From contig NC_057751.1 of NCBI RefSeq assembly GCF_004010195.1, positions 3,551,907 to 3,592,834 of the forward strand: a DNA stretch of 40,928 nt, given 5' to 3'. The notes under the pieces are model-generated. The model saw only the letters and a list, made by a program, of their open reading frames with translations. It was not told where the DNA came from and searched no databases. The position numbers were made by a program, and so were the translations under genes. The stretch comes from Chiloscyllium plagiosum. Lineage: Eukaryota. Positions 1 to 40,928 of the stretch are shown piece after piece; position 1 is the first letter of the stretch, and the number at the start of each line of letters is the position of its first letter.

Positions 1-425
1 AGGATAATGCGCTGTATCTGGATATTCGTGAGGTAGAAGGTGAGGACCTATCCCTTTTGCAGTTCGGAGGGGTAGGGTACAAGGCTGAGGTGCGGGTGTG
101 GAGGAGGTGCACTGGAGGACATTGTTGATCACATGTGAGGGGAAATTGCGGTCCTTGAAGTTGGAGGCCACCTGGGATGTCTGGGAGTAGAATTGCTCCT
201 CCTGGGGACAGATACAGTGAAGTGGAGGAAATGGGAGTAAGGGATCGTGGGAGGAGGTGTAGTCTAGACAGCTGTGGGAGATGATAGGTTTGAAATCTAT
301 GTCTGCGTTGAGTTGGTCACCAGAGATGGAGACGGAAAGGTCCAGGCAGGGGAGGGACATGTCCAAGATGGTCCAGGTGAACTTAAAGTCAGGTTGGAAA
401 ATGTTAGTGAGGTTGATGAACTATT
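1..425 (-). mobile_element. Penelope-like retroelement, RT C-terminal/thumb fragment (decayed, runs off window start)
   Basis: Minus-strand translation FINLTNIFQPDFKFTWTILDMSLPCLDLSVSISGDQLNADIDFKPIISHSCLDYTSSH...ICPQEEQFYSQTSQVASNFKDRNFPSHV...VLTFYLTN resembles the PLE RT pattern F-HP-LKFT...LPFLD...YKPT-S-YL-Y-S-HP; frameshifted. Confidence 0.85.
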
Positions 426-659
426 CAACAGCCAAAGTTTTTGAGTGTCCATTTCAACATTTGGGGAGCAAATTGTGAAACATTTATCAGCTGATGGCCA
501 TGCAGGGGTTCTGTAGGGGTTCTGAAAATGGCCAAGGCATGGTTGCCCTCTGCTCTCCAACCATTGTATGGAGCCACTGTTTTGGCCATCAAATTCAGTC
601 CTGTGTACATTTCTGACCACCAGCAAAACTAATAACAGGGTGCTGAAGCAAGCAGTGAA

Positions 660-1000
660 ATTCCTGCCTGTTAACTCTGTTTCTTTCACCATGGATATTG
701 CCAGACCTGTTAAATATTTCCAGCACTTCCTCTGTTTCACTTTAGTCCCCCCGGGAAATTAGTCAGTTGTATTTAAGAAGGCAGCTCAGCACCACTTTTA
801 CCTGAAGGGCAGTTGAGACTGGGCAATAAGGCGACGGATAAGTGCTGGAAAATGGAAATCAAACAGATGGATACTACATGACAGGTGCAGACATAATAGG
901 CTGAAGGATCTCTTTTCTTTTCCCGAGAAAACTCTACTACTTCATGACTCACCACAAATGCTGGTCTGGTCAGTAATGCCCACATCACTTGAATAAATTA
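660..1000 (+). repeat. Cluster of decayed repeat 3' ends (PLE terminus, L2/CR1-clade LINE tails)
   Basis: gttaactctgtttct...ccagacctg...tttccagcac resembles the other PLE termini here; aagaaggcagctcagcaccac...gggcaataa...atgctggtctggtcag resembles the tail at 6520-6610. Confidence 0.55.
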
Positions 1001-3720: not shown

Positions 3721-3904
3721 GCTTTGAGACTGTTTTTATATACTGCTTGTTTAGAAAAGAATCCTGCCTTTTGACCACCACCATTTGAAATGTCAACTTG
3801 GGGATATATTTTTCAGGAGAAAGTGAGGACTGCAGATGCTGGAGACCAGAGCTGAAAAATGTGTTGCTGGAAAAGTGCAGCAGCTCAGGCAGCATCCAAG
3901 GAGC

Positions 3905-3946
3905 AGGAGAATCAACGTTTCGGGCATAAGCCCTTCTTCAGGAATG
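3905..3946 (-). ncRNA. Minimal type I hammerhead ribozyme motif (best-preserved copy)
   Basis: Minus strand reads AUUC-CUGAAGA-A-GGGC-UUAU-GCCC-GAAAC-GUU-GAU: intact CUGANGA and GAAA core, perfect 4-bp stem II, palindromic AACGUU at stem III. Confidence 0.7.
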
Positions 3947-4083
3947 AGGAGGGTGTGGAAAGCAGGCTAAGATAAAAGGCAGGGAGGAGGGACTTGGGGG
4001 AGGGGCGTTGGGAATGCGATAGGTGGAAGGAGGTTAAGGTGAGGGTGATAGGCCGGAGAGGGGGTGGGGGCGGAGAGGTCGGG

Positions 4084-4306
4084 NNNNNNNNNNNNNNNNN
4101 NNNNNNNNNNNNNNNNNNNNNNNNNNNNNNNNNNNNNNNNNNNNNNNNNNNNNNNNNNNNNNNNNNNNNNNNNNNNNNNNNNNNNNNNNNNNNNNNNNNN
4201 NNNNNNNNNNNNNNNNNNNNNNNNNNNNNNNNNNNNNNNNNNNNNNNNNNNNNNNNNNNNNNNNNNNNNNNNNNNNNNNNNNNNNNNNNNNNNNNNNNNN
4301 NNNNNN
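4084..4306. other. Assembly gap (223 N)
   Basis: Run of N inside the PLE copy. Confidence 1.
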
Positions 4307-4779
4307 AGGTGTGGGTGCAAGTTTTGCATTTCTTGCGGTTGCAGGGGAAGGTGCCGGGAGTGGAGGTTGGGTTGGTGGGGTGTGTGGACCTGACGAGGGA
4401 GTCGTGGAGGGAGTGGTCTTCCCGGAACGCTGATAGGGGAGGGGAGGGAAATATATCCTTGATTTTTTTTTACATGCAAAATATCAACAATACTGAGGTG
4501 AGATGTGGGGAGAGTAGTTTGGACGAAACATCTTAACTGCAGTATTATAAGGAAATGTATGAGGATGCTATTCTGTACCAGAGCTCGTCACTTGCTACAA
4601 GACAAAATTCAAGTTCTGGGCCTCGAAGAGAAGCTATGGCTTAAGGTGCTTATTTTTCTTCCTTATCCCTGCTCTAAACATCCACTTTCAATCCTCTTCC
4701 TCGCATATACATGCTGTTCACTCCCTGACTTTGTCCCAGTCACAGTCCTGACAGCTCACACCGCTGCCCTGTTCTGGAG

Positions 4780-5904: not shown

Positions 5905-6055
5905 TTGCAATATCATTTCAGAAGTAAGTTAAAAGTCACAAACATTCTGTGCATCTGGAGTTTTTATATAGACCAGACCAAAAAAGCGGGGCAGACACAT
6001 TTTCCTGAAAGCTGTGAGTGAATCAGATGGACTTGACCAGCAATCTGATAATTTC
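5905..6055 (-). mobile_element. tRNA-derived SINE remnant (same family as 25790-26050)
   Basis: Reverse-complement similarity to 25920-25990 (tggtctgg...tgactc...ctcttaa-ctgccctctgaaatg). Confidence 0.45.
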
Positions 6056-6058
6056 ATG

Positions 6059-6191
6059 TAAAAGCAAAATACTGAAGATGCTGAAAATCCAAAAGAAAAA
6101 TACAAGTGCTGGAGAAACTCAGCAAGTTGGGCAGCATTAGTGGGGAGAGAAACAGAATCAGTGTTTCGAGCTCAATGACTCTTCTTCGGAA
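6059..6191 (-). mobile_element. Short PLE terminus with degenerate hammerhead
   Basis: Minus AGUU-CCGAAGA-A-GAGUCAUUGAGCUC-GAAAC; flanked by degenerate direct repeat ctgataatttcatg (6045-6058) / ctgatagttttgag (6192-6205). Confidence 0.7.
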
Positions 6192-6229
6192 CTGATAGTT
6201 TTGAGATATGCACTTCGCTTTTAATAAAC

Positions 6230-6630: not shown

Positions 6631-8531
6631 GATGTTGAACACAAATTTGTGCAGTTCAACTTTCATTCAAGTAGAAGTGTTTGAAATACCCCTTTACAGC
6701 TCTGCTGATACAAAACAAGATGATCCTCACAGTAACAGTGAAAGTGTGCATTGACCAAACCCAACATATTCTTGGATCAAGTAGTAAACACACAAGAGTA
6801 AACAGAAGTAACTAAATGTGTACTAAGAAATCAACCGAGTTGTCATAAAATATATCTTGTTCATAATTTTGCTAAACTTATCGTACTAAAGTTAGGCATC
6901 CATCTTTTTAAGTTTTGTTCAGTTCCTTTGAGATTTTTAATTAATATAACCCATTTTAGTGCAGGTACAATGGGTTGAATGGTTCCCTTCTGCACTTTAA
7001 TAAATCTGTGGTTCTGGGATTCAATATCAAGCAACCCACTGTGACTCAATGACATTTGTGAAAAGACCACTTATCGGATGACATTTTGTTATCTTACGAG
7101 ATATCTTCGCTTAGAGATAGGACAGACACAAAATGGTGTGACTCGTAATGCAACATATCACTGTTCATGCAAGTTTCCAGAAAGGTTAATTTAAAAGTAG
7201 AACCAAATCAGAAAATTTAATCTCCCAAAGTTTGTGCCGCAGTACGTGTAATACAGGCTGCATTCTGTGAGCAACCTCGTGGTTTTTAAGCCAACTTTTC
7301 CCACAGGTCCAAATCTTGCTGTGTAGGAATTGTGAAATGGATCCATGTTGAAATCTAAACACTGAGATAGGTTGTAAATCCTATCATAATAATCCAAAAT
7401 ATTGGGCCAATCACTGCATCATCACATTTCAAATGTTATGAACTCTAAAAAATTTCCACATTACTAAGAATATCTATATCTTAAGTAATTGACTGCAATT
7501 GTTTACTTCTGAGAAATTAGCAGCATTTCTCTAATTTATTACTGTTACAGTGTACTCTAGGCCGAGTGAACTGTAATAGCTGGGATGCACTGTTACCGTG
7601 TGAGGGATTTTCCCTGTGTAGGTCATTTTAAAAAGGTTTGGCATTCCCCCAGACAACATTATTAGACTATGTTTGTGCCAAATGCAAACCGATGAGAAAG
7701 TGTGAAGATCGATGTTTGCCAGTTGCTGAACATGTGCAAGTAATCCCAATCCAGATCTACAGTTATTACATTGCAGACATCTGTCTCAGTAATACTCGTG
7801 TCTTTTGGTGAACTAATACTGTGAATGCTTTGTGGAAGTATCTTTACAAGTAGAGTAAAGTGGTTCCTGAATCTGGGTGACACATACTTTCATGATACCC
7901 CAAACTCACTAAATACCGTTTCCGGCCAATAGCCGAGACAGTGACAAAAGGAAATCCCCATGCTACTGGAACACTTCTTAAGTTGATATCAATTACTTCT
8001 CGGACGAAAATCCAGTGTTTGAAAATTCATGAAATTATAAATTGATTTGCAACCATTTACTCAGTTGTTTCCTAAAATGTATTGAAAATAACAGCATAAG
8101 AAAAGGTACCACCAACAATTTCTGATTTTGCCTTTGGAAATATTTACTATTTGTTTCTGTTATTACATCACAGACTACCTGCTTTAGAAGACCCCTCAAA
8201 ATACTATTAATGAATTTGAACTCCTTCTGTACAGCAGAAACAAGGTGAAAGAGGTGTTGAGAATGTGTGGTACATTTGGTTGCACTGTTGATAAATTTGG
8301 TGAATTCAGATAGACAACTGATAATAAACAAAAATAAAAATCAGCACTTTCCAAACTTCTGGACTCAATATTGAGTTCAACCCCTTCAAACTGTGAACCC
8401 ATTCCTTCTTTTAGCTTTACAGCCCAATCATGTAATCTGAACTATCAACGTCTTTTATCCCTCAGCACTCCAACTCCCCACCGCCGCCGCCCCCCCCCCC
8501 CATAAATACTGCCTTGTCCACACTTCACATC

Positions 8532-8570
8532 AGCTCTGGTGAACAGTCATCTTGACTCGAAACGTTAGCT
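8532..8570 (+). ncRNA. Minimal hammerhead motif (core mutated to CUGGUGA)
   Basis: AGCU-CUGGUGA-A-CAGUC-AUCUU-GACUC-GAAAC-GUU-AGCU: 4-bp stem I, stem II, palindromic AACGUU. Confidence 0.65.
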
Positions 8571-8596
8571 TGCTCTCTCTCCATGGATGCTGCCTG

Positions 8597-8720
8597 GTAA
8601 AAACAATGACTGCAGATGCTGGAAACCAGATTCTGGATTAGTGGTGCTGGAAGAGCACAGCAGTTCAGGCAGCATCCGAGGAGCAGTAACATCGATGTTT
8701 CGGGCAAAAGTCCTTCATCA
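8597..8720 (-). mobile_element. 124-bp PLE-terminus mini element with hammerhead, 12-bp TSD
   Basis: Flanked by ggatgctgcctg (8585-8596) and ggatgccgcctg (8721-8732); minus strand reads CUGAUGA-A-GGAC-UUUU-GCCC-GAAAC-AUC. Confidence 0.85.
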
Positions 8721-11639
8721 GGATGCCGCCTGACCCACTGTGATCACCCGCATTTGTTGTTCTCATTAGCATGCCTTGTTCAGACAAGAATCTGTGTCAA
8801 TGTTAACGGTTGACTGTAATGAAGCCCATGGTGATCAATCTGACCAGTGAAGCTTGCTAAAACAGAGGACAGAACCACAAAATAAGTCTGGATCTTTCTC
8901 TTTGGGCTTTGGCCTAATTCTTCTCCAGCCTGAAACATCTCGCAAACACCCATTGTGATATATTTGATTGTTTGTGGTGAGCTTCAGGCTGCTTGCTCTG
9001 GGAAAGGTGGCAGCTAGAAGCCCTTCTGCTTTTTTACACCCTGTATGTGCTTGTACCCAAGGCCCAGCTGGAAAATAAACCAGGTTGGCCCAAAGAGCCT
9101 CTCACTTAGCTTTGGATGCGGAAGTGAAAATCCCATTCTGTCACTGCAGAGCTACAGGTCTCCCTGCACATTGGATCTCATTTCCATAGCCCACATACAA
9201 ATATTCACCTCACTGGAAGAGGAAATTTTAACATAATCCACTCAGCAAGAGACTAACGAAATTAGAATGGTCACCATTTTACACTCGGTACAATTTTGCT
9301 GTTAAAAGAATTCAACAGCATGTCCAATCAGGCAGTGTTTAGGAATATAGGAATATCTTCATTTGTGATGCTGGCAAAGCCAGCATTTAGTGCCCATCTT
9401 TCTCTCTCTCTGCCTTTGAGTAGTTTGTGATGAGCTGCGTTCTTCAATAAGTCTGGTCTGTGAGATAAAGGTACTTCACAATGTTGTCTGGGTGAAAGTT
9501 GGAGGGTATTGACTCAGAGACAACAAAAGGATGGCTCTCGTGTTTCCAATAGACTGAGATCTTCCAGCTACTGGATAAGGGATCAGTTGCCTTTCTAACC
9601 CACTGGCAAATTTTCAACAGTAGCCTTTTGTAGGCCATGAGCTTTGGAGTATAAAGTACTCAGTTTATGAATAATGCCATTGCCAGAAGCTTGCCACCTT
9701 TGTGACAGTTTCCTCAACTTTCATTTCCTTGAGCATTCAAGTTTGGGTGTGCTTCCAAAAATTCAAACAGGTAACCAATCCAATTTCATCAATTTTCTTC
9801 TGAGCACATGCAGATAAAACTCTCAGACTATGTTTGTCGCTCGTATCTGTTCCTCAACAAGGATAGCCCACAGGATATATCGCCTGTGCTCTGCATCTTT
9901 TTTTCCAAGTTAATGTCAGTGAATATCATAAACTGTGCAGTTTCCAAGTAGGTGAATTAAGTTAACACTTGAAGCTGAGAAACATTTCCCAGCAGTTTCT
10001 CTAAATGCATGACTATGCCAGACAACTATTTTGTAGCCAATTCACATAACTTGAAAAGAATACTTATTTCGATTTTAACACTGTTCTGTCAGTCAGAAGT
10101 ATGAACCCACAGGGTAAAATTGTCAAATCTTCCCACAAGCAAAAAATGCCTTTTCACTCTTTCATCTCATCTTTTTGCTTTGCAAGAACAGATGACATAC
10201 GTATATTGTCCCAGAACTGCTGCCAACAGTGCAAAGCTCTTGCGCTGTAATCAGGAAGATTAAGATGACAGAGGATAAGTGGTACAGCTACCCACAAATC
10301 TAACTCACATAACAGCCTTAATAAATGTCTTCGTGATGAGTCAATGAGGAGTTGGGGGAAGGGTAATGGATAAGGTGTTATGTATTAGAAATGTGACACA
10401 TATATCACACCTCCTTTTGCACAGGTATTGGGTGGCCAAATATTTCACTGATTTAATTGATATTTAAATTGGGCCTTTGAGCACTTGGGAGCTGAAGTGA
10501 AATTCAGAATTTCTGCTTTGATTTTCAAGGGTTCAAGAATGCCAACAACAAAAGGGAGGAGTGTGCTGCTAGTTCTCCGGTTTCCAGCATCCTTGTTGGC
10601 TTGGAAGAGAAGGAGTTCTCAAGATGTTTATTCAAGGGGAGCCAATCACCCCAGTCCTCCAAAATTGTATCTCCTTCCTAGCCTGCCCCATCATGGGACT
10701 CTCTCTGCTGGCTGTTTATGACTTTTTCACATCTCCTGATGGCAATCTTCTCTCCACCCTCCCAATCACTCTCTTTCCTCTCCCGATCCTCACTGAATCC
10801 TGATTGCAGGGTTCTGTCATCTGGGGTCACTGGCTGTTGTCACCAGCCTACTCTGGCGAGACTGTCCCAGGAAAAAGGACTAAAAAATGTGATTGAGGTT
10901 TTGCCTTACACTTCAACAGAAATTACACATCTCTAGCCCTGCCAGATTCTTTTTTAATCTGCCCTTCTTTGGGGGACAGAATAGCCTTAGGGGTTGGCAA
11001 AACAAGTCTTCAGCTACAGTTGATTCAGACAATTCGGATTTTGCAATGAGAAGCAAGTAGGCCCAGGATACTGACAACAAGCAGCAAATAGTTGTTTTTC
11101 AAAAATCATTGTTAAAATACTCTTTCAGGAGAGTAGGTGACTATGGATCTTGAGTGTTGCTGGAAAGAGAGACATGTTGCTTAAACTGTTCATCTTGCAA
11201 ATCTCAGGATAAAGGCAAGAATACCAAATTTCAAATGATAACAATATGTACTGCAAGAGTAAAGAATGCTCATTGGTTAGCAAGTCAGATCTGATTCGTT
11301 GAGATGTTGCTCCAAGTCAGTTTTTTTTGTGTAGATATTTATTGAAAAATATTTTCACTCTTTTACAAAAAAACTCCAAAAGGTTATAAAAGTAAAAAAG
11401 TACAGAAAAGTAGAAATAATATTGTACTATTATACTATATTACAGTAACGTTGACAATAAATGGCCTACTATTCCTCAAGATATAGTCGTCTCATATTTA
11501 CTTAAACCAAATTAGCATAAACTCAAATTAAATAAAATAACATTAAATTAAATTCCAATCCATTAAAATTGAATAACACTATATTGTACTCGCCTCAGTT
11601 CCATCCCGTCCACGGAAGCAACAGCGATTATACCCACAT

Positions 11640-14261
11640 TTAGTAGGCACACCCATTCGCCCACATATGACAGCAGGGCGCTTATTTGGTATCTCCTTTG
11701 ATCTGGGAGGTCCACCCCACCCCATATCCTGTGGAAGTTGCAACTTGGTAAATTTAATCAGGGGGCACCTACAGCACCAAATAAATTATCTAAGCCATCC
11801 CACAAACCTCCGCAGTACCTGTTTGGGTAACAACAACGGGAGCATCCTCATAGGATATAACAACCGAGGAAGAACATTCATTTTAATCAAGGCTTTACGG
11901 CCGAGCCATGATTTGGGCAGTTCTTCCCATTGCTGCAAGTCCTGCTTTATTCTCTCAAACAAATACACAGTTGCTGGAAGCGAGGGGTAATAAAAATTCC
12001 CAGATAGAGAAAACCTTTCTCTAAAAGGAAACTCCATTCTGTCCTCCAGCTTCAGTACTTCTACCAATCCCCCCTCAGGCATGACTTCTGACTTTGTGAA
12101 ATTTATCCTGCATCCCCAAAAGCTGCCAAGTAATTGAACCTTTTGTATTAGCCGGAGTACGGACTTTTTGGGGTTAGCCAAAAAAAGGACATCGTCCGCA
12201 TAGAGAGTGATTTTGTGTTCCTCAACTAAGACCTTTGGTGGCATTACCTCAGGGTCCTTTTGGATGGCTTCTGCCAACAGTTCAAGTACCAAGGTGTACA
12301 GCAGCGGTGACAGGGGACATCCTTGTCGACTGCCCCTCCCCACGCTAAAATTGTTCAATTTAACCCCATTTGTGATAACCGCTCCCATGGGGTCTTTATA
12401 TACGACTGCCACCCACCTGGCAAAGGCCAAAACGATCTGGAACAGCAAAGAGATACAACCATTCCACCTGCTCAAAAGCCTTTTCTGCATCCAGGGAGAC
12501 CACCAAACCTGGAATCATTCTCTGCTGACATATTTGCACTATATTCAATACCCGTCTGATATTGTTGGAGGAGCTGCAGCCCTTGGTAAAACATCTCGTC
12601 TCTTTTATAATAACGGACAGTACCTTCTCCAACCTCAGAGCAAACACCTTCGATAGGATTTTAAAATCCACATTCAACAATGAGATGGGTCTGGACATCT
12701 GGACGTCTCCGGATGATGCGCAATTCTCGGGGTCTTTCCCTTTTTTTAAAATAAGGAAGATATTAGCTTCCTGAAGAGAGGACGGAAGGCAGTCATGGCT
12801 ATACAAATGACGATACCTCATTAACAGTGGTCAGCTAACGTGTATGAACTCATTGTAAAATTCACTCAGGAATCTGTCTGGACCGGGTGCCTTACTACCT
12901 TGGAGCTTCCTTACAGCCTCTAGCACCTCCTGTACTGTCAGTGCTGCATTTAAAAGGGAGGCCTGATCTGTGTTTATACTATGGAGGTCCAAGTTTTCAA
13001 AAAAGGATTCCATTCTCCATCCCCACAGTCCTCTGACCGGTATAGTTCTGTATAGAACTCCCAGAATCTGGCAATGATCTTCCTCAGTTTGCGTGTGACA
13101 GTGCCAGTTCTCTCCCTGATAGACATAACGGACTGTGGAGCACTTTTCTTGCTTGCCAGGCAAGCTAGGCTTATCCCCATATTCAAACAGCCTTTGCTTT
13201 GCAAAGGAGTCCACTCTCTTGGTCACTTGTTTGAGTGCTGAGTCCAAAGCAGCCCAGAGAGCCATGACCCACTGAAACTTGACCATGGATGGTCTGGTAT
13301 AATATGCCGACTCAGCTGCCTTCAGCCGGGCCTCAAACATCTGCTGCTGCTGGTCTCCTCTCTCTGCCTCCTTCTCGTTGTCAAGTATGAAACAATTATA
13401 CTCCTTAAGAATGGTTTGGTGGTCTCCCAGGGCACTGATAGATTACTGGCCGTACCCCGATTATGTCCCAAAAAGCTCTGAACTCCCTTGTGATATACTG
13501 TACAAAGTTGTCATTCTTCAACCGAAATGGATCCATGCACCAGTGATGTGTGCCTACACCACTACCTTTGGTCTTAACATCCAAATATACTGCCGCATGG
13601 TCTGAAATAGTTATGCTCCCAATCCTGCAAGTCAACACCAAGTCCAAAAAAACTGACAGAACAAAGAACATATCAATTCTTGTGTGGCACTTGTGCAGAT
13701 TGAAGTCAAAGGTAAAATCTCTCCCACTAGGGTGGAGGCACCTCCACACATCCATTAGCTCCAACTCCTCACACAAGTCCATGAATTGTCTAGACTGCCG
13801 AGGTGTACCCGACAGCCCTCTTGGCATCCTGTCTGCCCCAAGGTCCATGAGACAATTAAAGTATCCTCCTATAATCACCCCAAGAGCCATTAAGTTAGAG
13901 ACTGCATCAACTAAAAATTTGAGATGATGCGCCGGATGTAAATGTTCAGGATGCCATACTCTTCTCCATGAGAATGACGAACCGTCCATACTCATCCTTG
14001 ATTTGACCTGTCACCTGAAATGGGAGGTTCTTTCATACCAGTATGGTCACTCCTCTGCTTTTGGTGTTAAAGGAGGAAAAGAACACCCCTATTGTATCCC
14101 CTGCTGTAAAGTGAGATGTTGCCCATCAGTCAAATGGTCTCTTGCAACAGCACAATGTCAACCCTTTCCTTCCTAAGATTTGAGATCACCTTTTACCTTT
14201 TAATGGGGGAATGGCTCCCCTTTATATTCCAGATGCACCACCTGAACAGATCGCTAGCCAT
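11640..14261 (-). pseudogene. L1 ORF2 (APE endonuclease plus reverse transcriptase), frameshifted
   Basis: ATG at 14261 (MASDLFRWCIWNIKG); endonuclease motifs GGYFN, TRIDMFF, ISDHAAV; RT motifs KAPGPD, RPISLLNVDFKILSK, SLDAEKAFEQVEW, RGSRQGCPLSPLLY, LYADD, GRKALIKMNVLPRLLY. Confidence 0.93.
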
Positions 14262-14824
14262 GACCACACACCACAGCCCGCAGTCCCCCAAGAGGAAGAA
14301 GCCCATTCAATGTGTGATGAGTGGAGAAAAAACAAACTTTATCAAATCTAAAGACTATTCCCACAAATGCTACCAAAACTACAAAAACTAATAAACTAAA
14401 ACACAAATCTCCAGAGATCTCCCTCCTTTCCCATCGGGGAATTCACTCCCAAACTCAGAACAATCCAAGCACCTTCCAGTAAAGGCCTTACCCCAAACCC
14501 AAGCAATGGAAAAAAAAACATATTACGTACACTCCTATAAGTTAACCATGGATGCCCACCCCTCCCCCTCCACATCTCAATCCCACATATCTTTACATCA
14601 AAAGGAGTAACCGCCCCACACCCAGCAAAACAGAACAATAGAATAACTAATAACCACCAAACAGACAGACTATAAAACATACCGGATTTTATACCAAAGC
14701 AATACCAAGCCTATCAGGCCTAAGACCCCAAAAGGGAAAAGAACAAAGAGAGGGAAGATAAAAAAAATTATACAATGCCATTATCCACCGCATATTTTCC
14801 TCCTTCTCCCTTGGTCAAAGTCTA

Positions 14825-15680
14825 TTACTTTAGCGAGTGCAAAAAGTCTTTTACTTTTTCCGCTGAGTCAAAGTTGCAGTCAGTTCCCCCTTAATTGAAG
14901 TGTAACACTGCCAGGTATCTCAGAGAATATTTAAAGCTTAAATCTCTTCATTTTTTTTCTTTACATCATCAAAGGTCTTCCTTTTCTTAATTATGGCCCC
15001 AGAAAATTCATGAGAAAACATTATCTTTGAATCTTTATAAGCCAAAGCCTGTGGATCTCCACGCAGTCTTCTGGATGTTTCTACAATTAATTGCTTTTCC
15101 TTGTAATGCTGGAGTCGCACTGGGACCAGGCGGGGGCACTGATTCGGCCCGGACCTGCGCATCTGGTGGGCCCGCTCCACATTCACCCACCTCAATCTCC
15201 AGCCCCAACAACTCCAGAAGCCACCTCTCGAGAAAATCAGCAAGGTTTTCACCTTCTCCACTCTCCAGTAAGCCCAAGATCCATAGACATTTTTCTCCAA
15301 CCTCAATTTTCAAGGTCGTCTACTTGTTCCTGCAGGGTCTGAACCTGGCCTTCCAAGGCACGGACCCGCACCTCGGAGCTCTCGGTTGCGGCCTCTAAAG
15401 CCATGGTCCTCTGTTCCACTGCTTTCCACATGCTGATCCAAAGTCCGGATCTCCTGCTCATGCTTTGTCAGCATGGCAGTAATTGGTTCCAGTGCTCCCT
15501 CGATTTTTTCACAGAGTTTTGTGAACTCCGTGAGTAAACGCTGCTGCTCCACTGAACTTAAGGGCGTCGCCATGGGAGTTGAGGTATCGGCTGCGGGTGT
15601 GCCTGACATAGTAGGGGAGTGGCCTGCCTGCAGTGCTCACTTTCCGTTGGATGTTTTCTTTTTAGCTTCAGATCTATGAA
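14825..15680 (-). pseudogene. L1 ORF1 (coiled coil plus RRM/CTD), frameshifted
   Basis: Coiled-coil-like LTKHEQEIRTLDQHVE, then WILGLLESGEG..LADFLERWLLELLGL, VERAH, PRLVPVRLQHYKEK, KIMFSHEFS..IIKKRKTFDDVKK, and FDSAEKVKDFLHSLK*. Confidence 0.88.
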
Positions 15681-16012: not shown

Positions 16013-16486
16013 TATCAAGAAAATAATTCGAACTGGAGGTTTCTCAGCCTCCCTGGTAATTCACAAATGACACATATTCCTCAAACAAACAAAAACAGAC
16101 ATTGTTAGAGAGACTCAGCAAGCCTAACAGCATCAATGAAGAGAAAACCGCGTGAAAGTTTTGAATTTAGTGACTTCAGAAGTGAACCTGTTTCCATTAT
16201 TTGCAGAGAACAGGTTCCTGTACATGAATGTATGTCACTTCTGGCATAAATGAGATACATTAAGAGCTTGACTAATCACACATTAGCATAGGTTTTAGCA
16301 TGCATTATTATTCAGCAAATGCTGTCGACTCACATTTAACAGTAGACATGGTTCAAAGTACTTCCTTTCCTCAATGTGTTTGTTCAGAAATTTGCAAATA
16401 GCTTCTCCACTGCTGTCTTTTTTAATTGGTCAAAAATTAAACGGTCAACATACACATTTGAATTTGTATTGCTTTATACATTATAA

Positions 16487-17741
16487 CATGTTTCATAAAC
16501 TTGATTGAGTTTTTTGAAGAAGTAACAAAGAGGATTGATGAGGGCAGAGCGGAAGATGTGACCTATCTGGACTTCAGTAAGGTGTTTGACAAGGTACCGC
16601 CTTGGGAGACTGGTTAGCAAGGGTAGATCTCATGGAATACAGGGAGAACTAGCCATTTGGATACAGAACTGGCTTAAAGGTAGAAGACAGAGGGTGGTGG
16701 TGGTGGAGGGTTGTTTCAGACTGGAGGCCTGTGACCAGTGGAGTGCCACAAGGATTGGTGCCAGGTGCACTACTTTCATCATTTATATAAATGATTTGGG
16801 TGTAAGCATAAAAGGTATAGTTGGTAAGTTTGCAGATGACACCAAAATTGGAGGTGGAGTGGACAGGGAAGAAGGTTACCTCGGATTACAATGGATCTTG
16901 ATCAGATGGGCCAATGGGCTGAGAAGTGGCAGATGGAGTTTAATTTAGATAAATGTAAGGTGTGAGGGAAAGCAAATCTTAGCAGGACTTATACACTTAA
17001 TGGTAAGGTCCAAGGGAGTGTTGCTGAACAAAGTGACCTTGGAGTGCAGGTTCATAGCTCCTTCTAAGTGGAGTCGCAGGTAGATAGCATAGTGAAGAAG
17101 GCATTTGGTATGCTTTCCTTTATTGGTCAGAGTATTGAGTACAGGAGTTGGGAGGTCATGTTGCGGGTGTACAGGACATTGGTTAGGCCATTGTTGGAAT
17201 ATTGTGTGCAATTCTGGTCTTCTTCCTATTGGAAAGATGTTGTAAAACTTGAAAGGATTCAGAAAAGATTTACAAGGATGTTGCTGAGGTTGGATAATTT
17301 GAGCTATAGGGAGAGGTTTAATAGGCTAGGGTAGTTTTCCCTGGAGTGTCGGAGGCTGAGTGTTGACCTTACAGAAGTTTATAAAATCATGAGGGGCATG
17401 GATAGGATAAATAGACAAAGTGTTGTCCCAGGGATGGGGGAGTCCAGAACTAGAGGTCACAGGTTTATGGTGAGAGGGGAAAGATATAAAAGAGACCTAA
17501 GGGGCAATATTTTCACAGAGAGGGTGGTACGTGTATGGAATGAGCTGTTAGAGGAAGTGGTGGAGGCTAGTACAACTGTAACATTTAAGAGGCAGCTGGA
17601 TGGGTATATGAATAGGAAGGGTTTGGAGGGATATGGGCCGGGTGCTGGCAGGTGGGACTAGATTGGGTTGGAATATCTGGTCGGCATGGACGAGTTGGAC
17701 CGAAGGGTCTGTTTCCGTGCTGTACATCTCTGTGACTCTAT
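16487..17741 (+). mobile_element. HER1-like CR1 LINE, 5'-truncated
   Basis: CR1 RT motifs NLIEFFEEVT, YLDFSK, KFADDTKIGG, YRTLVRPLLEYCVQFW, GHRFMVRGERYKRDLRGNIFTERVVRVWNEL; 3' tail gggtctgtttccgtgctgtacatctctgtgactcta. Confidence 0.93.
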
Positions 17742-18848
17742 AGCATGGTTTACCATCGATTCTGCTGAAAACCTCGAAACAGTTTTCAAATCTAGAGATT
17801 TCAAACAGTTCTCTCTTTGAGGATTCTAAGGTTTAATATAAATTCAACAGAGAGATGGAAGTTTACTTTGTCTTTGGTGCACTTCCCAACATATTGAAAA
17901 ATCAAACATAAGATATATCTCATGAAATTTTTAAGTCTCACGAGTCAATGAAGCTAATTAGAAGGAGATATGTAGGTAATGAAATGGCAAAGGCAGAATG
18001 CATTTTATGTGCTTTATTAAGTCTCCATGATGAAAAAGTTTGAAGACTGTTTCACCTTTCCAAGCAGTATTTTACTGACTACGATTCTAAACTGCAGAAG
18101 GAGACACAGGTTAAAAAGATGAGTGAAAATTACATTTCATCATGAGGATACAGAGAAGAGTAGTTCAGTATTTAACATAACAGCAGGGTCAAGAATAACA
18201 TGGCATTTTTGTTTGTCAACTTTGGTTGTTTTCTTAAAAATTAATTCAATCCACTGGATACTTCAAACCTCACCAGTCTGAATTTATGATCCAAGTCTTA
18301 AAACTTACAAAATAAATTAAGATCAATTGTTACTCAATATTCAAACTAGTTAGCAAACCTGGATGAGCTCATTATTATTTGTGGAAAATGTGACTTTCAA
18401 ATCACTTTCAAATCCTTCTTTGCTTAACAAAATCTATAAATTTTCATTATTGAATAGGCAAAAGATGCTGGAAGCACTCTGGTATCACCTTACAAGCCCC
18501 CATCATCTGATTGAGTCTGGAGACAAACCATCACAGAATTCTAGTACACTCAGGTGACTGCAGAAGTTAGGATTGAGGGAAGAAAAAGAACTAAAATGTG
18601 TGAATCTTGCCTTCAAATGGAGATATCTACAAGGTTATCAAATAAACAACAAAGTCAAGGGAATGGAAGAAATAAACCCAGACCACGACTTTAAATTGTC
18701 ACAAATTGGCACATGAAATTACCTTGAGATAGGATGGGCTGATACTTTCAAAAACAATCAGATGTTGCAATGGGAGATTGGGCAGTCTTTCACAGTTATG
18801 AACGAAAATGGAGTGAACCACCTTCCTCAGCAGAATTCTCTCACTCAC

Positions 18849-18941: not shown

Positions 18942-20290
18942 TTACAGAATTGGCTGACTGAAAGAAGACAGCAAGTAGTAGTGAATGGAAAGTTTTCCGC
19001 CTGGAGGTTGGTAACCAGTGGTGTCCCACAAGGAATTGGGCCTCTGCTCTTTGTTGTTTTTATAAATTATTCGAATGAAGAAGTGAAAGAGTGGGTTAGT
19101 AAATTTGCATATGACACAAAGCTTGGTGGTGCTGGAGATCGTGTCGAGGACTGTTACAAGCTGCAACAAGACATCGACAGCTTGCAGAATTGGGCTGAGA
19201 AGTGGCAGATGGAGTTCAACCAGTCATGATGCCTCACAGCACCAGGGTCCCAGGTTCAATTCCAGCCTTGGGCAACTGTCTACGTGGAGTTTGCACATTT
19301 TCCCTGATTCTGCGTGGATTTCCTCCGGTTGCTCCGGTTTCCTCTCACAGTCTAAAGATGTGCAGGTCAGGTGAATTGGCCATGCTAAATTGCCCATTGT
19401 GTTCGCCACATTAGTCAGAGGGAAATGGGTCTGGGTGGGTTTCTCTTCAGAGGGTTGGTGTGGGCTTGTTGGGCCCAAGGGCCTGTTTCCACACTGTAGC
19501 TAATCTAGTCATCTCATCTAATCTAGTCTAGATAAATATGAAGTGATTCATTCTGGAAGGTCGAATTTGAATGCTGAATGAGGGTTAAAGACAGGATTCT
19601 TCACAGTGTGGAGGACAGCGGGACCTTGGTGTTCATGAACATAGATCCCTCAAAGTTGCCATCCAAGTTGATTGGGCTGTTAACAAGGCATATGGTGCTT
19701 TGGCTTTCATTAATGAGACGATTGAGTTTAAGAGCTGCGAGGTTTTGCTGCAGCTCTATAAAACCCTGGTTCGACCACGCTTGGAATATTGTGTCCAGTT
19801 CTGGTTGCCTCATTATAGGAAGGATGTAGATGCTTTAGAGAGGGTGCAGGGGAGATTTACCAGGATGTTGTCTGGATTGGAGGGTTTGTCTTATGAAGAG
19901 AGGTTGAGTGAGCTCGGGCTTTTCACACCAGAGAGAAGAAGGAAGAGAGATGATTTGATTGAGGTTTACAAGATAACGAGAGGCATAGATAGAGTAGGTA
20001 GGCAGACACTTTTCCCCAGGGCAGAAATGGCTGTCACGAGGGGTAATAATTTTAAGGTGATAGGAAGAAGGTATAGAGGATATGTCAGAGGTAAGTTCTT
20101 TATGCAGAGAGTGGTGGGTGCGTAGAATGCACTGCCAGTGGTTGTAGTAGAGTTTAAGTGACTGTTGGACAAGAGCATGGACTGCATTGAGGGGTGTGTA
20201 GATTCGGTTGGTCTTAGATCAAGGGAAATGCTTGACACAACATCGTGGGCTGAAGGGCCTGTACTGTGCTGTACTGTTCTATGTTCTATA
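18942..20290 (+). mobile_element. CR1 LINE (second subfamily, ctatgtt tail), 5'-truncated, interrupted by a SINE
   Basis: VTSGVPQG, SKFAYDTKLGG, LYKTLVRPRLEYCVQFW, KFFMQRVVGA; tail gggcctgtactgtgctgtactgttctatgttcta. Confidence 0.92.
19228..19530 (+). mobile_element. HE1-like SINE, slightly 5'-truncated
   Basis: B box ggttcaattcc, body shared with 27759 and 31389 copies, 3' gggcctgtttccacactgt and (ctaat)n-like tail. Confidence 0.9.
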
Positions 20291-21120: not shown

Positions 21121-21139
21121 TCAACACTGAATTAAACAG

Positions 21140-21311
21140 GGAGATAGTGAGGACTGCAGATGCTGGAGATCAGAGTCAAAATGTGTGGTGCTGGAAAAGC
21201 ACAGCTGGTCAGGCAGCATCCGAGGAGCAGGAGAGTTGACGATTTGAGCTTATGCTCTTCTTCAGGAATGTCTGCCTCACCGGCTGTGCTTTTCCAGCAC
21301 CACACTTTGTG
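21140..21311 (-). mobile_element. 172-bp PLE mini element: hammerhead terminus plus inverted partial copy, 16-bp TSD
   Basis: TSD acactgaattaaacag (21124-21139) / acactgaattgaacag (21312-21327); inverted arms gtggtgctggaaaagcacagctggtcaggcag and ctgcctcaccggctgtgcttttccagcaccac. Confidence 0.85.
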
Positions 21312-22744
21312 ACACTGAATTGAACAGCTCAAGTCAGCATCCAGGATCAGAATCCTTTTACCTGTGATCTGTTGCAGCACGCAAAAGATATCCAACTTCC
21401 CTGTATATATGGGAATGGGTATTTCGGAATGAGTAGAGTAAGGGATCTGTAAATTTGCTTGTCAGGTTTTTGTGGTATATTTGAAGGTGCTTAAGCTGTT
21501 AGTATATTACTATTATCAGATAGTTGTGAATGCAGGCATTGACTCACTCTGGATTTCAGAAAGCATTCAAAAAGAATATTTGTGACAACAGATGAAATTC
21601 TGCAATGTGATTCCCACCTTGTAATGATTTGCTTTGTCTCTATTCTTTACGATATATGCTGTGGAGAAATAACTATTCATGTTGATGATGGGAAGGTTTC
21701 CTCTGAAATTTGTGAAATTGCAGCAGATTCTTTCCATATACCTTTACAATCTTGCTACAAGTGACAAGACAATCAATTCTTAGCTTTTACGTTTCCATCC
21801 TTACGCTAATATTGATTATAAACACAAGGTGACAATTGGAATCCGCCTGATTATTGTTGCTCCAGCTGAGGGCCGTGAGTTAGTCTGATGGGTAAGGTGT
21901 GTGGGGAAGAGGCAGTCAGAAGGGGGCTGAACTGTAGTCAGCAGCAGTGCACATATTTCTCATGAAAGCAGAAAAGGCCCAGCCTCCTCCATAATCTTCA
22001 TTCCACATCAAGGGATAATTAATCAAATCAATAAGTGATCAAAGGGAGATGATCTTCAGCAGGTTTCTCTTCCTGCTCCCATACCATAATCCATGAAGTC
22101 ATCTTTGGTTTCCTTTTCTTCATATTTGTACACAAACAAGAGAGCAGCTGCTAGATGTACTTTGACAATACTAAGATTTCCCTCCCCACTAGGCTCTTGA
22201 TGTTTCTACTGCATCTCCAATATCCAAGATTAGATGAAACAGAATTTTTCAATTAAAGACAGAAAAATCTGAATCTGTAATTTTTGATCGACCACAAACT
22301 CCTAGCCTTGCTACTGATTTGATTCCTGAAAATGAACCAGGTTGTTCCATCCTGTATAACTCCGTTCATCTTATATTTTGCTTCATTTGAGTTCGAACTC
22401 AAGCCTCTACCCTGTCCCCTCCAAGGTCCTCTTCATTAACTATTCTGAGCATCAGTCCGCAAATGTCTCAAATTTAAATTCTTTATTTTCACAGCTTCAT
22501 CCAATTCTTTCTATGCAAGTTCTGCAGCCAGAGCTGTAACTTTCCCTGGTCTCTTAGCTGCACTGTCTTTGCCTTTTTGTCAATAGTTTAGACCATCACT
22601 GACAGTCAGAACTTTATTTGACAAGACCTCACACTCTACAGTTCTCCTTCCTGTAAATTCTGAGCCTCTCCATTACTCTGTTCTTTAGGATATTCCTTCA
22701 ACTAAAGCTTTAGGTCACTTCTCCAAAAATCTCCCTGTTTCCTT

Positions 22745-22873
22745 TCAAATCCAGTCTTGTCTGCTTCTGTTCTCATGTGGTGCTGTAGGACAGTTCTCTT
22801 TCTACTTTTTTACTTTTTAACAAATTACAGTTCTTATTAGGAATTCCTTCAAAGGTTGTGAGATAAGCACAGG
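22745..22873 (+). repeat. About 130-bp direct repeat, copy 1 (copy 2 at 24843-24973)
   Basis: tcaa..cc.gtct.gtctg.ttctgt...ggtgctgtaggac.gttctctttctacttttt...gttgtgagataagcacagg is present in both places. Confidence 0.92.
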
Positions 22874-23949: not shown

Positions 23950-25120
23950 AATGTGCTGCCTTGGAAAATAACCTTTTAATTTTCCCATCCAAAACTGTCC
24001 TTAAGGTGATGATGAGTTGGCACATTGATCTGCTGCAATCCATGTGCTGTAAGTATACCTACAGTGCTACTGGCTCAGGAGTTCCAGGATTCAAAATCTA
24101 CAATACAAAAGGAATAGCGATATTGTTTGAAGTCAGTTTGATGTTTAGCTTGTGGGGAACTTGTAGTTGATCACATTTTAATAGAATTGGTGTCCCTGTC
24201 CTTCTAGGTGATAGAAGTTCCGAGTTTGGAATGTGGTGTCAAAGGAGCCTTGGTGTGCAGCCCAAACTTGGATACTGTCCAGATCTGGGTTCATAATTGC
24301 AGGGAATGCTTCAGTATCTGAAGAATTGCGAATGATGCTGAATATGGTTGGGGTTCTGACACTATGATGAGGAATTCCTGCAGAGACGTCTGAGATTCAG
24401 AAAGTTGGTCTTCAACAAGAGTAACCATTTTTCCTTTGTGTGAACTACAACTCTTATTAGTGGAGGGTTTTCTCACTGTTTCCCATTGACTTGAGGCTTA
24501 CCAGTGCTTGATATAAGACTGGGTCAAATGCTGCCTTGATATAAACCACCCCCGCCCTCCACGAACTCTGTTGATTTCCGCTCTTTTGTTTGCCTGGTTC
24601 TTGTCAAATTCAAGGGAGCATTATTGAGCAGGTCATCGCTGAGCAAGTGCATCTTGATATCATTGTTGCTGATTCTGTCAATTAGTTTTACGATGATCAA
24701 GAGAAGAATGATAATGCAATAAATGGTTAGATTGTCCTGCTTTTTTGAGGAAACACGATGGCTTGGCAAGTTTTCACATTGTTGGATTGACGTCAGTGTT
24801 GCATCTGCACTGGAACAGCGTAACAAGGTGCATACCTCAAACTCAAGTCCGGTCTGGTCTGATTCTGTCTTCATTAGGTGCTGTAGGACTGTTCTCTTTC
24901 TACTTTTTTTAACTTTTTAACAAACTGCAGTTATTATTAGGAATTCCTTAAAGGGTTGTGAGATAAGCACAGGCTATTGCCGAAATTTTGTCAGGGCCAA
25001 AGGTCTTTGCACTATCCAATGCCGACAGCTGATGCTTAATATCACATGGAGTAAACGGAGTTGTTTGAAGACTGAATCAGTGACACTCTGATATCATAAG
25101 GATGTCAAGTTAATAATATC
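23950..25120 (-). mobile_element. Decayed L2/CR1-clade LINE (same family as 6230-6630)
   Basis: 3' end is the reverse complement of 6480-6610; RT-like stretches upstream (ttgtcagggcc resembles GPDN on minus). Confidence 0.6.
24843..24973 (+). repeat. About 130-bp direct repeat, copy 2, embedded in the LINE
   Basis: Matches 22745-22873. Confidence 0.92.
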
Positions 25121-27758: not shown

Positions 27759-28065
27759 GGGCAGCACGGTGGCACAATGGTTATCACTGCTGCCTCACAG
27801 TGCCAGGGACCTGGGTTCAATTCTAGCCTTGGGCAACTGTCTGTGTGGGAGTTTGCACATTCTTTCCATGTCTGTGTTGCTCCCCATGTCCCCTGTGGGT
27901 GCTCTGGTTTCCTCCCACAGTCCAAAGATGTGCAGGTCAGGTGAATTGGCCATGCTAAATTGCCCACAGTGTGAGGCACATTAATCAGAGGGAAATGGGT
28001 CTGGATGGGTTACTCTTCAGAGGGTCAGTGTGGACTTGTTGGGCCAGATGGCCTGTTTCCACAAT
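27759..28065 (+). mobile_element. HE1-like SINE, full length
   Basis: gggcagcacggtggcacaatgg (A box), ggttcaattc (B box), conserved body, LINE-derived 3' ggcctgtttccac. Confidence 0.92.
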
Positions 28066-28931
28066 GGAATGTTTTATGCTCATTTGATTAAGAAGAACAG
28101 GATATTTGTGTCAATGAAATGGCAATACCCCTGATGATGCAGTACACCCTGAAATGTGAAATGTCAGCCTTGATTTTGTGCTCCCGTCCTTTTCCATCTT
28201 GAAAGCATTCCCTCTGACTCAAAATGAAAATGCTGTTACTGAAGCTTGCAGATAAACAAAAGCATCTTGTCAAAAACCTCAATTAGCTTACTTAAAATAG
28301 CTTAGAAAATTCTCTTTGTTGATTTTGGGCAGAAGATACTTATTTTTAAAACTTAAGCTAAATTTTTACTCAGGTTTTTAATGCTTAAGACAATGGTCAA
28401 TATGTGCACTGAACAGTCTGTATGATTTCCTTGTAAATCAAAGTGCGGCACTTTGTTTTGGATGTGACCTCCTTGGTTGCACAGCAACAGTGGTGGTGTT
28501 GATCAAATTAAATAAATCCATATCTTTACTGTGCTATGTTGGTAATGCGTGCAGTAAATTAAAGGGTGATGGGATGGAAGGTGAAGACAATAGGAATCCA
28601 ATAATTTTGCAAAGGACAAGTGCAAGAAATGGAATGGAGTCAACCATGGTGGATGGGAATGAGTTGAGGAAAATGGAAGTCTTATGGACAACTAAGTTGG
28701 GCTGTGATTTAACTGTTCTCATTTACATCTTACATTTCTTTATTTGACCCATTGCCATCCACTATCGGCCGTCAGTTATTTAACATACCCCACCTTCTAA
28801 ACAATCAGACCTTTTGGGTTTTCCTCTATTCCCCACCTTCATGTTCCCTGCTTCTGTACTTGCTCAACACTTGCCACATCAGAAACTTAATTTGAGTTCT
28901 GATAAAAGGTGTTGACCTGTAATGTTCACGA

Positions 28932-30038: not shown

Positions 30039-30354
30039 TATTTCCGTCTTCATAAATGCTGCCAGACATGTGAAGCATGTCAAAGATATTCTGCTTTCAT
30101 TTCAGATTTCCAGTGTTCAGAAATAGTTGGCTTTGGTATAAAAAGAATATGGATATTCAACTTTTGCCAAAAACCCAAATCATGTGACAAGCTCCATCCT
30201 CCTTCCCAACCAGTTGCTGACGCCAAACCAAATGGTAAAATGATAAATCACACTTCATTTGTCCCGAGAATTAGTTTGCCGACAGGGTTGAAGTGGAAGT
30301 CTACAGCACCATTTGAAGATTTTTGACAAGATCTGAACAAATAGTTTAGATTAT

Positions 30355-30750: not shown

Positions 30751-30788
30751 ATTTCTTTGAGTCAAAGAAACACAGAAAAAAGGAACAG

Positions 30789-38289: not shown

Positions 38290-38769
38290 ACAGACAATGT
38301 CTTAAAAAACTTCTTGAGTTAAAGCCATTTCACAAATGGTTCAGGTGACATGTTTCTGGCATTAATGCCAAGGATCAAACAGAATGAATGGTGAAATTAT
38401 AACTGGTCTGTAATTAGCAAACATATTACAATTCCGATGGCCCATTTATTCAGGGTATTTATTTCAACAGTTTTCTTTCTTTATGTATTGGTTCTACTGT
38501 CAGTTTTTGTTTTGGTCAGCTGATTGTTTATTATGCAGAAAAACTTTTGAACATGTTTTAGAGTTTTCCAAATTCTGTTAATGACACTGCAGATGTCCTT
38601 ATTAGTGCAAAATCAAATTTGATTTGATTTGATTAGTTCCATAGAAGATTCATAACAGACTTGAAACATGAACTTTTTCTCTCTTTACAGATGGTACCAG
38701 ACTAGCTGAGTTTCTCCAGCACTTCCTCTTTTTAGCTCAGATTTTCCAATCTAACTACATAACTGAAGT

Positions 38770-40649: not shown

Positions 40650-40928
40650 TTCTGGATTAGTGGTGCTGGAAGAGCACAGCAGTTCAGGCAGCATCCAAGG
40701 AGCTTCGAAATCGACGTTTCGGGAAAAAGCCATTCATCAGGAATAAAGGTAGTGAGCCTGAAGCGTGGAGAGATAAGCTAGAGGAGGGTGAGGGTGGGGA
40801 GAAAGTAGCTACAGTGGGGAAAAGGATGAAGGTGATAGGTCAGGGAGGAGAGGGTGGAGTGGATAGGTGGAAAAGGAGATAGGCAGGTAGGACAAGTCCG
40901 GACAAGTCATGGGGACAGTGCTGAGCTG
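40650..40928 (-). mobile_element. PLE 3' end with hammerhead motif (runs off window end)
   Basis: Near-identical to 8631-8721; minus UUC-CUGAUGA-A-UGGC-UUUU-UCCC-GAAAC-GUC-GA at 40708-40745; purine-rich tract follows on plus. Confidence 0.85.

What the first reader, a model, noticed from the sequence alone, without database searches (positions are those of the whole stretch)
8585..8732. Tiny hammerhead-bearing units inserted with their own TSDs, all ending at the ribozyme's 5' edge
Seen: 8597-8720 (12-bp TSD), 21140-21311 (16-bp TSD) and 6059-6191 (degenerate 14-bp TSD) consist only of hammerhead plus 3' terminus. In each, the element's 5' boundary or inversion point lies within a few nt of the CUGA core, not at the predicted cleavage site. 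Relics near 16090-16180 and 38636-38750 appear to stop at the same place. Inference: either a non-autonomous, retrozyme/SINE-like mini element mobilised by the PLE RT/GIY-YIG protein, or a strong reverse-transcription stop or template-switch point at the ribozyme. This is the best candidate for an undescribed system in the window.
Basis: partly seen in the sequence, partly recalled or inferred. Interest (0 to 1): 0.7.

Follow-up and report, generated by a model that had tools for sequence, protein, structure and literature searches.

The report
Penelope stubs starting at transcription start
These 100-230-base inserts are real, very abundant end-pieces of a known Penelope-like jumping gene rather than a separate mini-element family, and their shared front edge lies about 31 bases behind a TATA-like box on an initiator-like motif, so it likely marks where the element's RNA begins, with the hammerhead ribozyme likely copied uncut.

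Summary
The units are real: target-site duplications (TSDs) are 11/12 and 15/16, and a weak 10/14 for the third. They are insertion products of a Neptune/Nematis-type Penelope-like element (PLE) in a shark-like genome. In 1.8 Mb of evenly spaced genome stretches, 5' ends pile up 0-6 nt before the CUGA core (mode -4): 34 ends in 531 nt at risk, against 26 in 5,465 nt downstream. Only 4 of 98 end near the cleavage site. Short and long copies are interleaved on a tree (22 label changes, shuffled mean 22.3), so this is no separate SINE or retrozyme family. The hammerhead is not an absolute block: long copies pass it, and the two arms of inverted inserts stop or pass together (16 of 18). A TATA-like box lies 28-35 nt upstream of A(-4), which carries the only recurrent initiator-like motif. 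The tail continues into the ORF start. Best reading: reverse transcriptase primes inside the mRNA's 5' leader and runs off its start. No RNA evidence for that start was obtained, and a cap-derived G was not shown. The scan noted the same pattern before in this and other shark-like genomes.

The parts
8597..8723 (-). Stub of subfamily A: minimal hammerhead (C3 = 8721, predicted cut 8694/8693; the stem III palindrome ACGU is mutated to ACAU) plus tail to +124/125; 5' end at -2..+1
8585..8596 (.). TSD, left copy
   Evidence: 11 of 12
8721..8732 (.). TSD, right copy; first 3 nt shared with the element start (microhomology)
8501..8596 (+). 5' part of the older hammerhead stub that was the target: CATAAATA at 8501-8508, 31 nt before A(-4) = 8532; decayed core CTGGTGA at 8536
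8733..8770 (+). 3' part of the same older stub (end approximate)
   Evidence: continuity read from sequence
21140..21270 (-). Tail arm of a head-to-head insert, -5..+124 (C3 = 21265)
21272..21311 (+). Inverted, tail-less arm (about +50..+89)
   Evidence: (I13)
21124..21139 (.). TSD, left copy
   Evidence: 15 of 16
21312..21327 (.). TSD, right copy
6059..6193 (-). Older subfamily C stub (C3 = 6189); 5' end between -2 and -7; weak TSD 6045-6054 / 6192-6201
16090..16180 (-). Decayed subfamily C relic; upstream match ends at about -4..-6; no TSD found
38636..38750 (+). Decayed subfamily C relic; upstream match ends at about -4; no TSD found
3816..4460 (-). Long 5'-truncated copy of the parent PLE (subfamily B): linker CX4CXXC coding piece 4308-4460, assembly gap 4084-4306, 3' UTR with TTTATCT 31 nt before A(-4) = 3945, hammerhead (C3 = 3941), tail to 3816
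40650..40928 (-). Long copy (subfamily A) ending at the tail-less site (about +90); CTTATCT 33 nt before A(-4); runs off the window

Best explanation
The units are dead insertion products of an abundant Neptune/Nematis-type Penelope-like element, and their common 5' edge likely marks the start of the element's RNA: the polymerase II promoter is predicted to lie in the 3' UTR of the upstream tandem copy, and reverse transcriptase likely primes inside the 5' leader and runs off that start. Shown: architecture [TATA-like box at -28..-35] - A(-4) - hammerhead - end site 1 (about +84..+95) - end site 2 (+124..+127) - 37/38 nt - ATG of the RT / CX4CXXC / GIY-YIG ORF - 3' UTR - next hammerhead; TSDs of median 14 bp; a sharp pile-up of 5' ends at -4; short and long copies interleaved; concordant arm fate. 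Inferred: (1) capped transcripts start at A(-4); (2) the endonuclease nicks both target strands about 14 nt apart, and each nick can prime at one of the two internal end sites, as shown in vitro for the anole element; (3) priming on the 5'-leader copy gives 90-130-nt run-off cDNAs, joined to the target or to each other by 2-4-nt microhomology (simple or head-to-head stubs), while priming on a downstream copy gives long inserts; (4) stubs lack the upstream box, so they are not re-transcribed from their own promoter and form no lineage; (5) the template is uncleaved by the hammerhead.
For: Hazard of ending: 0.064/nt at -6..+1 against 0.004-0.008/nt at +6..+60 and 0-0.007/nt beyond -15 (113 simple copies; binomial 1e-20). 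17 of 24 TSD-defined simple copies end at -6..+1, and 63 of 72 inverted arms that reach +1 end there. The mode is -4 in both classes (10 of 38 simple, 12 of 52 arms). The upstream flanks of 25 young wall copies are unrelated to each other (scores 15-26, against 32-120 for long copies). Tree: 22 changes against shuffled 22.3. Arm concordance: pass/pass 4, wall/wall 12, mixed 2; Fisher p = 0.008. In 29 long copies the only YYANWYY position found in 8 or more is A(-4) (25 of 29), and YTTATM/TATAWA falls in the -40..-31 bin 24 times (11 matches in all other bins). Older subfamilies carry TATAAATA, CATAAATA or TATAAAG at -28..-33. Two loci show a repeated ATTCCTG head, as expected from slip-back at a template end. 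The tail runs on into the ORF ATG in 7 of 12 N-terminal loci. Internal priming at two sites: PMC11167929.
Against: No RNA 5' end was observed: two read layings showed no pile-up of starts. A cap-derived G is not shown (G at -5 in 4 of 24 simple and 5 of 21 inverted arms, genome G 21%). The wall is not perfectly hard: 13 of 23 simple copies reaching -4 also match at -5, and 6 of 38 reach -6..-11. None of 12 ORF-start loci began at -4: one passes to at least -16, two are cut by gaps, four end at +34..+102, five do not reach the tail. A(-4) is also the base of the short stem I, so structure and promoter are confounded. YTTATCT is not a canonical TATA box and was picked after seeing the data; related copies are not independent.
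Confidence: 0.7

Rival explanations
1. Reverse transcriptase stalls or switches template at the folded hammerhead on one class of long RNA.
For: Inverted arms show a raised hazard inside stem II (0.017/nt at +6..+25, against 0.0045 at +31..+60), and their junctions use the palindromes and hairpin. A(-4) is the predicted base of stem I.
Against: Ends pile up after the enzyme has crossed the whole motif, not at its 3' foot (simple copies 0.0055/nt at +6..+25). 33 of 80 simple copies pass -15. Paired arms pass or stop together (p = 0.008), which independent stalling does not predict. Inverted arms on long inserts pass to -32, -275 and -290.
Confidence: 0.12
2. The template has a defined but uncapped 5' end, made by a 5'-3' exonuclease or other nuclease halting at the ribozyme or at bound protein.
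For: Explains two template classes and arm concordance equally well, the ragged -4..-11 tail, and the lack of a clear extra G.
Against: Does not explain TATA-like boxes at a fixed 28-35 nt and an initiator-like motif on the same base in subfamilies about 70% alike. Stem I is only 3-4 bp and does not form in monomer folds.
Confidence: 0.12
3. A separate non-autonomous retrozyme- or SINE-like family that amplifies from its own short master copies.
For: Near-constant size, own TSDs and very high number (about 60 per Mb). One head-to-tail dimer exists (L176:5540-5840).
Against: No clade of short copies. Ends are not at the cleavage site (4 of 98 at +26..+30). Tandems are rare. Stubs lack the upstream box and carry no sequence foreign to the PLE.
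Confidence: 0.04
4. Ordinary random 5' truncation, with the pile-up an artefact of the hammerhead being the most conserved segment.
For: Alignments to a distant subfamily do break at the hammerhead edge; long-copy ends are hidden by assembly gaps.
Against: The peak sharpens in copies at least 90% identical to a long copy (22 of 42 at risk) and in TSD-defined copies (17 of 19 at risk). Flanks are unique.
Confidence: 0.02

Closest known systems
Insertions of endonuclease-positive Penelope-like elements, Neptune/Nematis type (PMC8557442 and PMC3846280, passages read)
   Same: RT - CX4CXXC linker - GIY-YIG ORF, heavy 5' truncation, partial tandems (pLTR), inverted 5'-truncated copy, 30-40-bp tail at one end, TSDs, microhomology joins, solo pLTRs.
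   Different: The passages read describe variable truncation, not a fixed 5' wall at the hammerhead edge or a promoter placing +1 there.
PAc, Poseidon element of Anolis carolinensis (Frangieh et al. 2024, PMC11167929, main text read)
   Same: Both strands cut and extended; reverse transcription starts internally at two sites bracketing the tail, about 110-120 nt past the hammerhead; uncleaved RNA is the template.
   Different: There the ORF starts in stem II; here the ATG lies 37-38 nt past the tail. The main text does not report run-off stubs or map the RNA start.
[quoted passage not shown]
   Same: Same minimal type I motif with palindromic stem III; mostly found as single copies attributed to truncated PLEs; also opposite-strand pairs 100-700 bp apart.
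   Different: They proposed cleavage and circularisation as the route to templates; ends here argue for mostly uncut templates.
Metazoan non-LTR retrozymes (PMC7229834, passages; bioRxiv 10.64898/2026.07.22.740005, main text)
   Same: Short, non-coding, type I hammerhead, related to pLTRs, presumed PLE-mobilised.
   Different: Retrozymes are tandem repeats with their own families, processed at the cleavage site into circular RNA; these units are single or head-to-head, carry the minimal motif and are interleaved with the PLE.
Drosophila virilis Penelope promoter (Schostak et al. 2008, PMC2377424, passages)
   Same: Promoter and RNA start inside the pLTR, upstream of the hammerhead region.
   Different: That promoter is TATA-less and internal, with 46 nt plus a 75-nt intron before the hammerhead; here an upstream TATA-like box and a start at the hammerhead's first base are predicted.

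Membership tests
EN+ Penelope-like element (Neptune/Nematis type) insertion | Continuous with an ORF carrying RT and C-terminal GIY-YIG | tested here: met
   Long copies join the same hammerhead-tail; Pfam GIY-YIG 25.7 bits (cut-off 22.6); RVT_1 only E = 0.007 on a 106-aa piece; homologues with PF00078 and PF01541
EN+ Penelope-like element (Neptune/Nematis type) insertion | Zn-finger-like CX2-5CXXC linker between RT and EN | tested here: met
   CHRRNCKTC / CNRKKCKTC
EN+ Penelope-like element (Neptune/Nematis type) insertion | Neptune versus Nematis placement by RT phylogeny | not tested
   No RT tree with reference clades was built
EN+ Penelope-like element (Neptune/Nematis type) insertion | Inverted 5'-truncated copy and a 30-40-bp tail at one end | tested here: met
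   77 inverted events; tail arm ends mostly at +124/125, other arm mostly at +84..+95
EN+ Penelope-like element (Neptune/Nematis type) insertion | pLTR / partial tandem: tail continues into the next ORF | tested here: met
   7 of 12 ORF-start loci
Minimal type I hammerhead | CUGANGA, stem II, GAAA, palindromic stem III, UH, short stem I | tested here: met
   Pattern scan; stem II and dimer pairing of the palindrome in folds; not in Rfam at gathering score
Minimal type I hammerhead | Self-cleavage as a dimer | not testable with these tools
   Needs an in vitro assay
Non-LTR retrozyme | Tandem head-to-tail repeats with a hammerhead in each unit | tested here: not met
   The window units are single or head-to-head; one dimer noticed in 1.8 Mb; tandems were not counted systematically
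Non-LTR retrozyme | Own sequence family distinct from PLE copies | tested here: not met
   22 label changes against shuffled 22.3
Non-LTR retrozyme | Monomeric linear or circular RNA | tested here: inconclusive
   Read layings could not resolve small or circular RNA
SINE | Polymerase III-derived head (tRNA, 5S, 7SL) with internal promoter | tested here: not met
   Units hold only PLE-derived sequence; no Rfam match in the window
Polymerase II core promoter (TATA + initiator; consensus and spacing recalled) | TATA-like box about 30 nt upstream of an initiator A | tested here: met
   canonical in older subfamilies, YTTATCT in younger ones
Polymerase II core promoter (TATA + initiator; consensus and spacing recalled) | Capped RNA 5' ends at that base | tested here: inconclusive
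   No start pile-up in poly(A) single-cell reads of a relative; extra G not enriched

The most novel reading that the evidence does not exclude
In these elements the hammerhead is the capped first 32 nucleotides of the mRNA, so its cleavage would decap and retire the message rather than prepare the template; the enzyme mostly retrotransposes the 5' leader of its own mRNA by internal twin priming, leaving on the order of 200,000 promoterless run-off cDNAs that map the RNA start to the base.
Probability: 0.35. Interest if true: 0.7.

Novelty: new variant of a known kind. Interest (0 to 1): 0.4.

Why it matters
The job of the hammerhead in endonuclease-bearing Penelope-like elements is stated to be unclear (PMC8557442), and their RNA start is mapped in few elements. 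If the wall is the transcription start, genomic copies give the start site to the base, show that the template is uncut, explain why a partial tandem is needed (the promoter box lies outside the transcript), and link the in vitro internal priming to the commonest insert type in vivo. One CAGE or 5' RACE experiment tests it. It is not a new mobile system.

Tried and rejected
Rfam scan: no match. Separate SINE/retrozyme family: rejected. Ends at the cleavage site: 4 of 98 simple copies and 5 of 123 arms at +26..+30, hazard 0.008 against 0.004-0.006; two simple copies end exactly at +28, neither with a TSD; a small cleaved fraction is not excluded. Splice acceptor as the edge (as in D. virilis): AG sites seen by eye at about -17..-27, but ends do not cluster there (4 of 33 at -16..-50). 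Cap-derived G: inconclusive. Rare variants shared by both arms as proof of a single RNA: only 10 pairs, 2 with any; inconclusive. RNA: no holder on record as RNA was listed; one raw-read run laid 3,059 and 3,133 reads with no start pile-up, another laid none; depth falls 5-7-fold upstream of the hammerhead in that relative, but passive transcription and conservation confound this. Full-length 5' ends: only 12 short stretches could be examined, none informative for a start at -4. A first subfamily C comparison used the wrong orientation and was redone. Literature searches for the wall or promoter found no paper reporting it; subscription papers and the supplements of the papers cited (Fig. S2 of PMC11167929 on RNA read ends; the preprint's tables) were not seen and may bear on this.

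Full report
Positions are numbered from C3 of the hammerhead's CUGA core (= 0) on the element's sense strand; the predicted cut is +27/+28.

The observation. All five named features are in the window. 8597-8723 has an 11/12 TSD whose inner 3 nt equal the element's start, and it sits inside an older, oppositely oriented hammerhead stub. 21140-21311 is a head-to-head insert with a 15/16 TSD. 6059-6191 belongs to an older subfamily; its TSD is 10/14 and partly equals the element's own upstream sequence. The two relics have no detectable TSD. The window also holds two long copies that pass the same point (3816-4460 and 40650-40928).

The parent. Long copies lead upstream into a GIY-YIG domain (Pfam 25.7 bits), a CX4CXXC linker and an RT. 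The nearest named proteins come from sharks (88% and 62%) and a ray. By the linker criterion in PMC8557442 (passages read) this is a Neptune/Nematis-type Penelope-like element; no RT tree was built. Of 12 loci taken at the ORF N-terminus, 7 show the tail running straight on into a 37-38-nt leader and the ATG (in one the ATG is mutated). The hammerhead and tail are therefore both the 3' end of every insert and the 5' leader of the next tandem unit.

Genome sample. I took 180 evenly spaced 10-kb stretches from 9 large contigs (1.8 Mb, 68.5 kb of it N). BLAST gave 379 units; 311 were of the younger subfamilies (A, B, B2), 308 could be placed on a library of 40 real long copies, and 298 lay away from stretch edges. 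The 68 older subfamily C hits were treated apart (52 aligned). TSD-like matches flank 123 of 298 against 9 of 880 shuffled pairs; the median TSD is 14 bp. After merging pairs and dropping exact duplicates there were 137 simple and 77 inverted events; 53 and 54 have an end at -8..+2, about 62 per Mb or roughly 200,000 genome-wide by plain extrapolation (the simple count includes older copies with less certain ends).

The wall. Among 113 simple copies with a 3' end beyond +80, the chance of ending per base is 0.064 at -6..+1, 0.039 at -7..-15, 0.004-0.008 between +6 and +60, and 0-0.007 beyond -15 (34 ends in 531 nt against 26 in 5,465 nt, p about 1e-20). It holds in copies at least 90% identical to a long copy (22 of 42 at risk) and in TSD-defined copies (17 of 24; TSDs are easier to find in short copies). 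Flanks of 25 young wall copies are unrelated to each other, so this is not an unseen subfamily. The modal exact end is A(-4), with a minor tail to -11. The cleavage site shows no clear peak (4 of 98). Upstream rates are rough because long copies often hit assembly gaps or the 400-nt library limit. In subfamily C, column conservation likewise falls to background beyond -5.

Not a separate family. On a tree of 88 columns (91 short, 24 long and 4 window rows; copies under 85% identity, with gaps, or with intermediate ends left out), the short/long label needs 22 changes against a shuffled mean of 22.3, and starred branches alone force at least 11. Many forks are unresolved, but short and long copies share every supported subfamily that has long members. 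The 8597 unit's nearest row is a long copy (95%).

Why there. Three readings remain: a stall at the fold, a trimmed RNA end, or the RNA start. Against a stall: 33 of 80 simple copies pass -15, inverted arms on long inserts pass to -32, -275 and -290, although two others stop at -2 and -4, and in TSD-flanked head-to-head pairs the arms share their fate: 4 pass/pass, 12 wall/wall, 2 mixed, after removing 3 cross-pairings from local duplications among 49 pairs (p = 0.008). This points to two template classes. For a start: in 29 long copies with at least 200 nt of UTR, the only recurrent YYANWYY has its A at -4 (25 of 29), and a YTTATM/TATAWA match falls at -40..-31 in 24. Older, divergent subfamilies have TATAAATA, CATAAATA or TATAAAG at -28..-33, including the host stub at 8501-8508. 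The consensus motifs and their spacing are recalled knowledge, YTTATCT was chosen after inspection, and copies within a subfamily are not independent. Two loci have ATTCCTG repeated at the head, which fits slip-back at a template end. Against a start, or unresolved: no enrichment of G at -5, no RNA start pile-up, none of 12 ORF-start loci beginning at -4, and A(-4) is also the foot of stem I.

Mechanism. In the anole element both strands are cut and extended, reverse transcription starts internally at two sites that bracket the tail, and uncut RNA is the template (PMC11167929, main text read). Here the two end sites are about +84..+95 and +124..+127. With internal priming, the 5' leader of every mRNA is itself a substrate, and copying it runs off at +1 after 90-130 nt. 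One primed strand gives a simple stub, joined mostly through 2-4 nt of microhomology (11 of 18 TSD-defined wall copies overlap by 2 nt or more); both strands give a head-to-head insert; priming on a downstream copy gives long inserts. Stubs lack the upstream box, which would explain why they form no lineage. These steps are inferred.

Comparison. Truncated copies, inverted heads, tails, TSDs and minimal hammerheads are all described (PMC3846280, PMC8557442 and PMC2377424, passages; PMC4209133, results and discussion). Retrozymes are tandem and processed at the cut (PMC7229834, passages; bioRxiv 10.64898/2026.07.22.740005, main text); those features were not met. Seven searches found no paper reporting the fixed edge or this promoter; subscription papers and supplements were not seen. 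Earlier notes of this scan reached the same reading in this and other shark-like genomes. My start-site idea and the TATA result preceded the look-ups that named them, and the notes are not independent support. One note's extra G was not reproduced in my small sample.

Verdict. Real feature, known class of element, and an apparently unpublished but testable detail of its RNA. New variant of a known kind; interest 0.4.

Noticed in passing
L176:5540-5840 (G000:C8): Head-to-tail dimer of a roughly 163-nt unit: hammerhead, tail and about 30 nt of the 5' leader, joined through CCTCT to a second hammerhead-tail; flanked by a near-duplicate of about 15 bp. Retrozyme-like geometry; could reflect a deletion or a circular template.
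   Followed up: partly
L117:4653 (+) and L117 minus-strand copy; also L111, L112, L096, L101: A subfamily with core UUGACAA in place of CUGAUGA and a canonical TATAAATA 32-33 nt before its A(-4).
   Followed up: partly
window 8585-8596: The target site is identical to the young element's own +45..+56 sequence; the same CATCC/TCC microhomology joins arms in three inverted inserts elsewhere (L168, L072, L083).
   Followed up: partly
window 97-429 (-) and 677-737 (+): Another fragment of the PLE ORF (55-61% identity) and a decayed subfamily C tail.
   Followed up: no
window 28123-28272 and 30334-30484: Inverted pair 2.1 kb apart with a CTGATGA...GAAA pattern at 28131, possibly another PLE family.
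   Followed up: no
L088:1994-2506, L137:5621-6010, L010:2556-2882: Fragments of a second, divergent PLE family (YIGQTGR motif; no cysteine linker seen), likely Poseidon type (clade name recalled).
   Followed up: no
window 11786-15636 (-): Broken frames that look like an L1-type LINE (endonuclease, RT and ORF1 pieces; label recalled, not tested).
   Followed up: no
window 16562-17868, 19036-20290, 27759-28072, 30741-32671, 37677-38301: Several CR1-like LINE fragments and shark SINE-like copies, some nested (labels recalled, not tested).
   Followed up: no
window 22745-22873 and 24843-24973: Direct repeat of about 130 nt, 2.1 kb apart, 87-91% identical.
   Followed up: no
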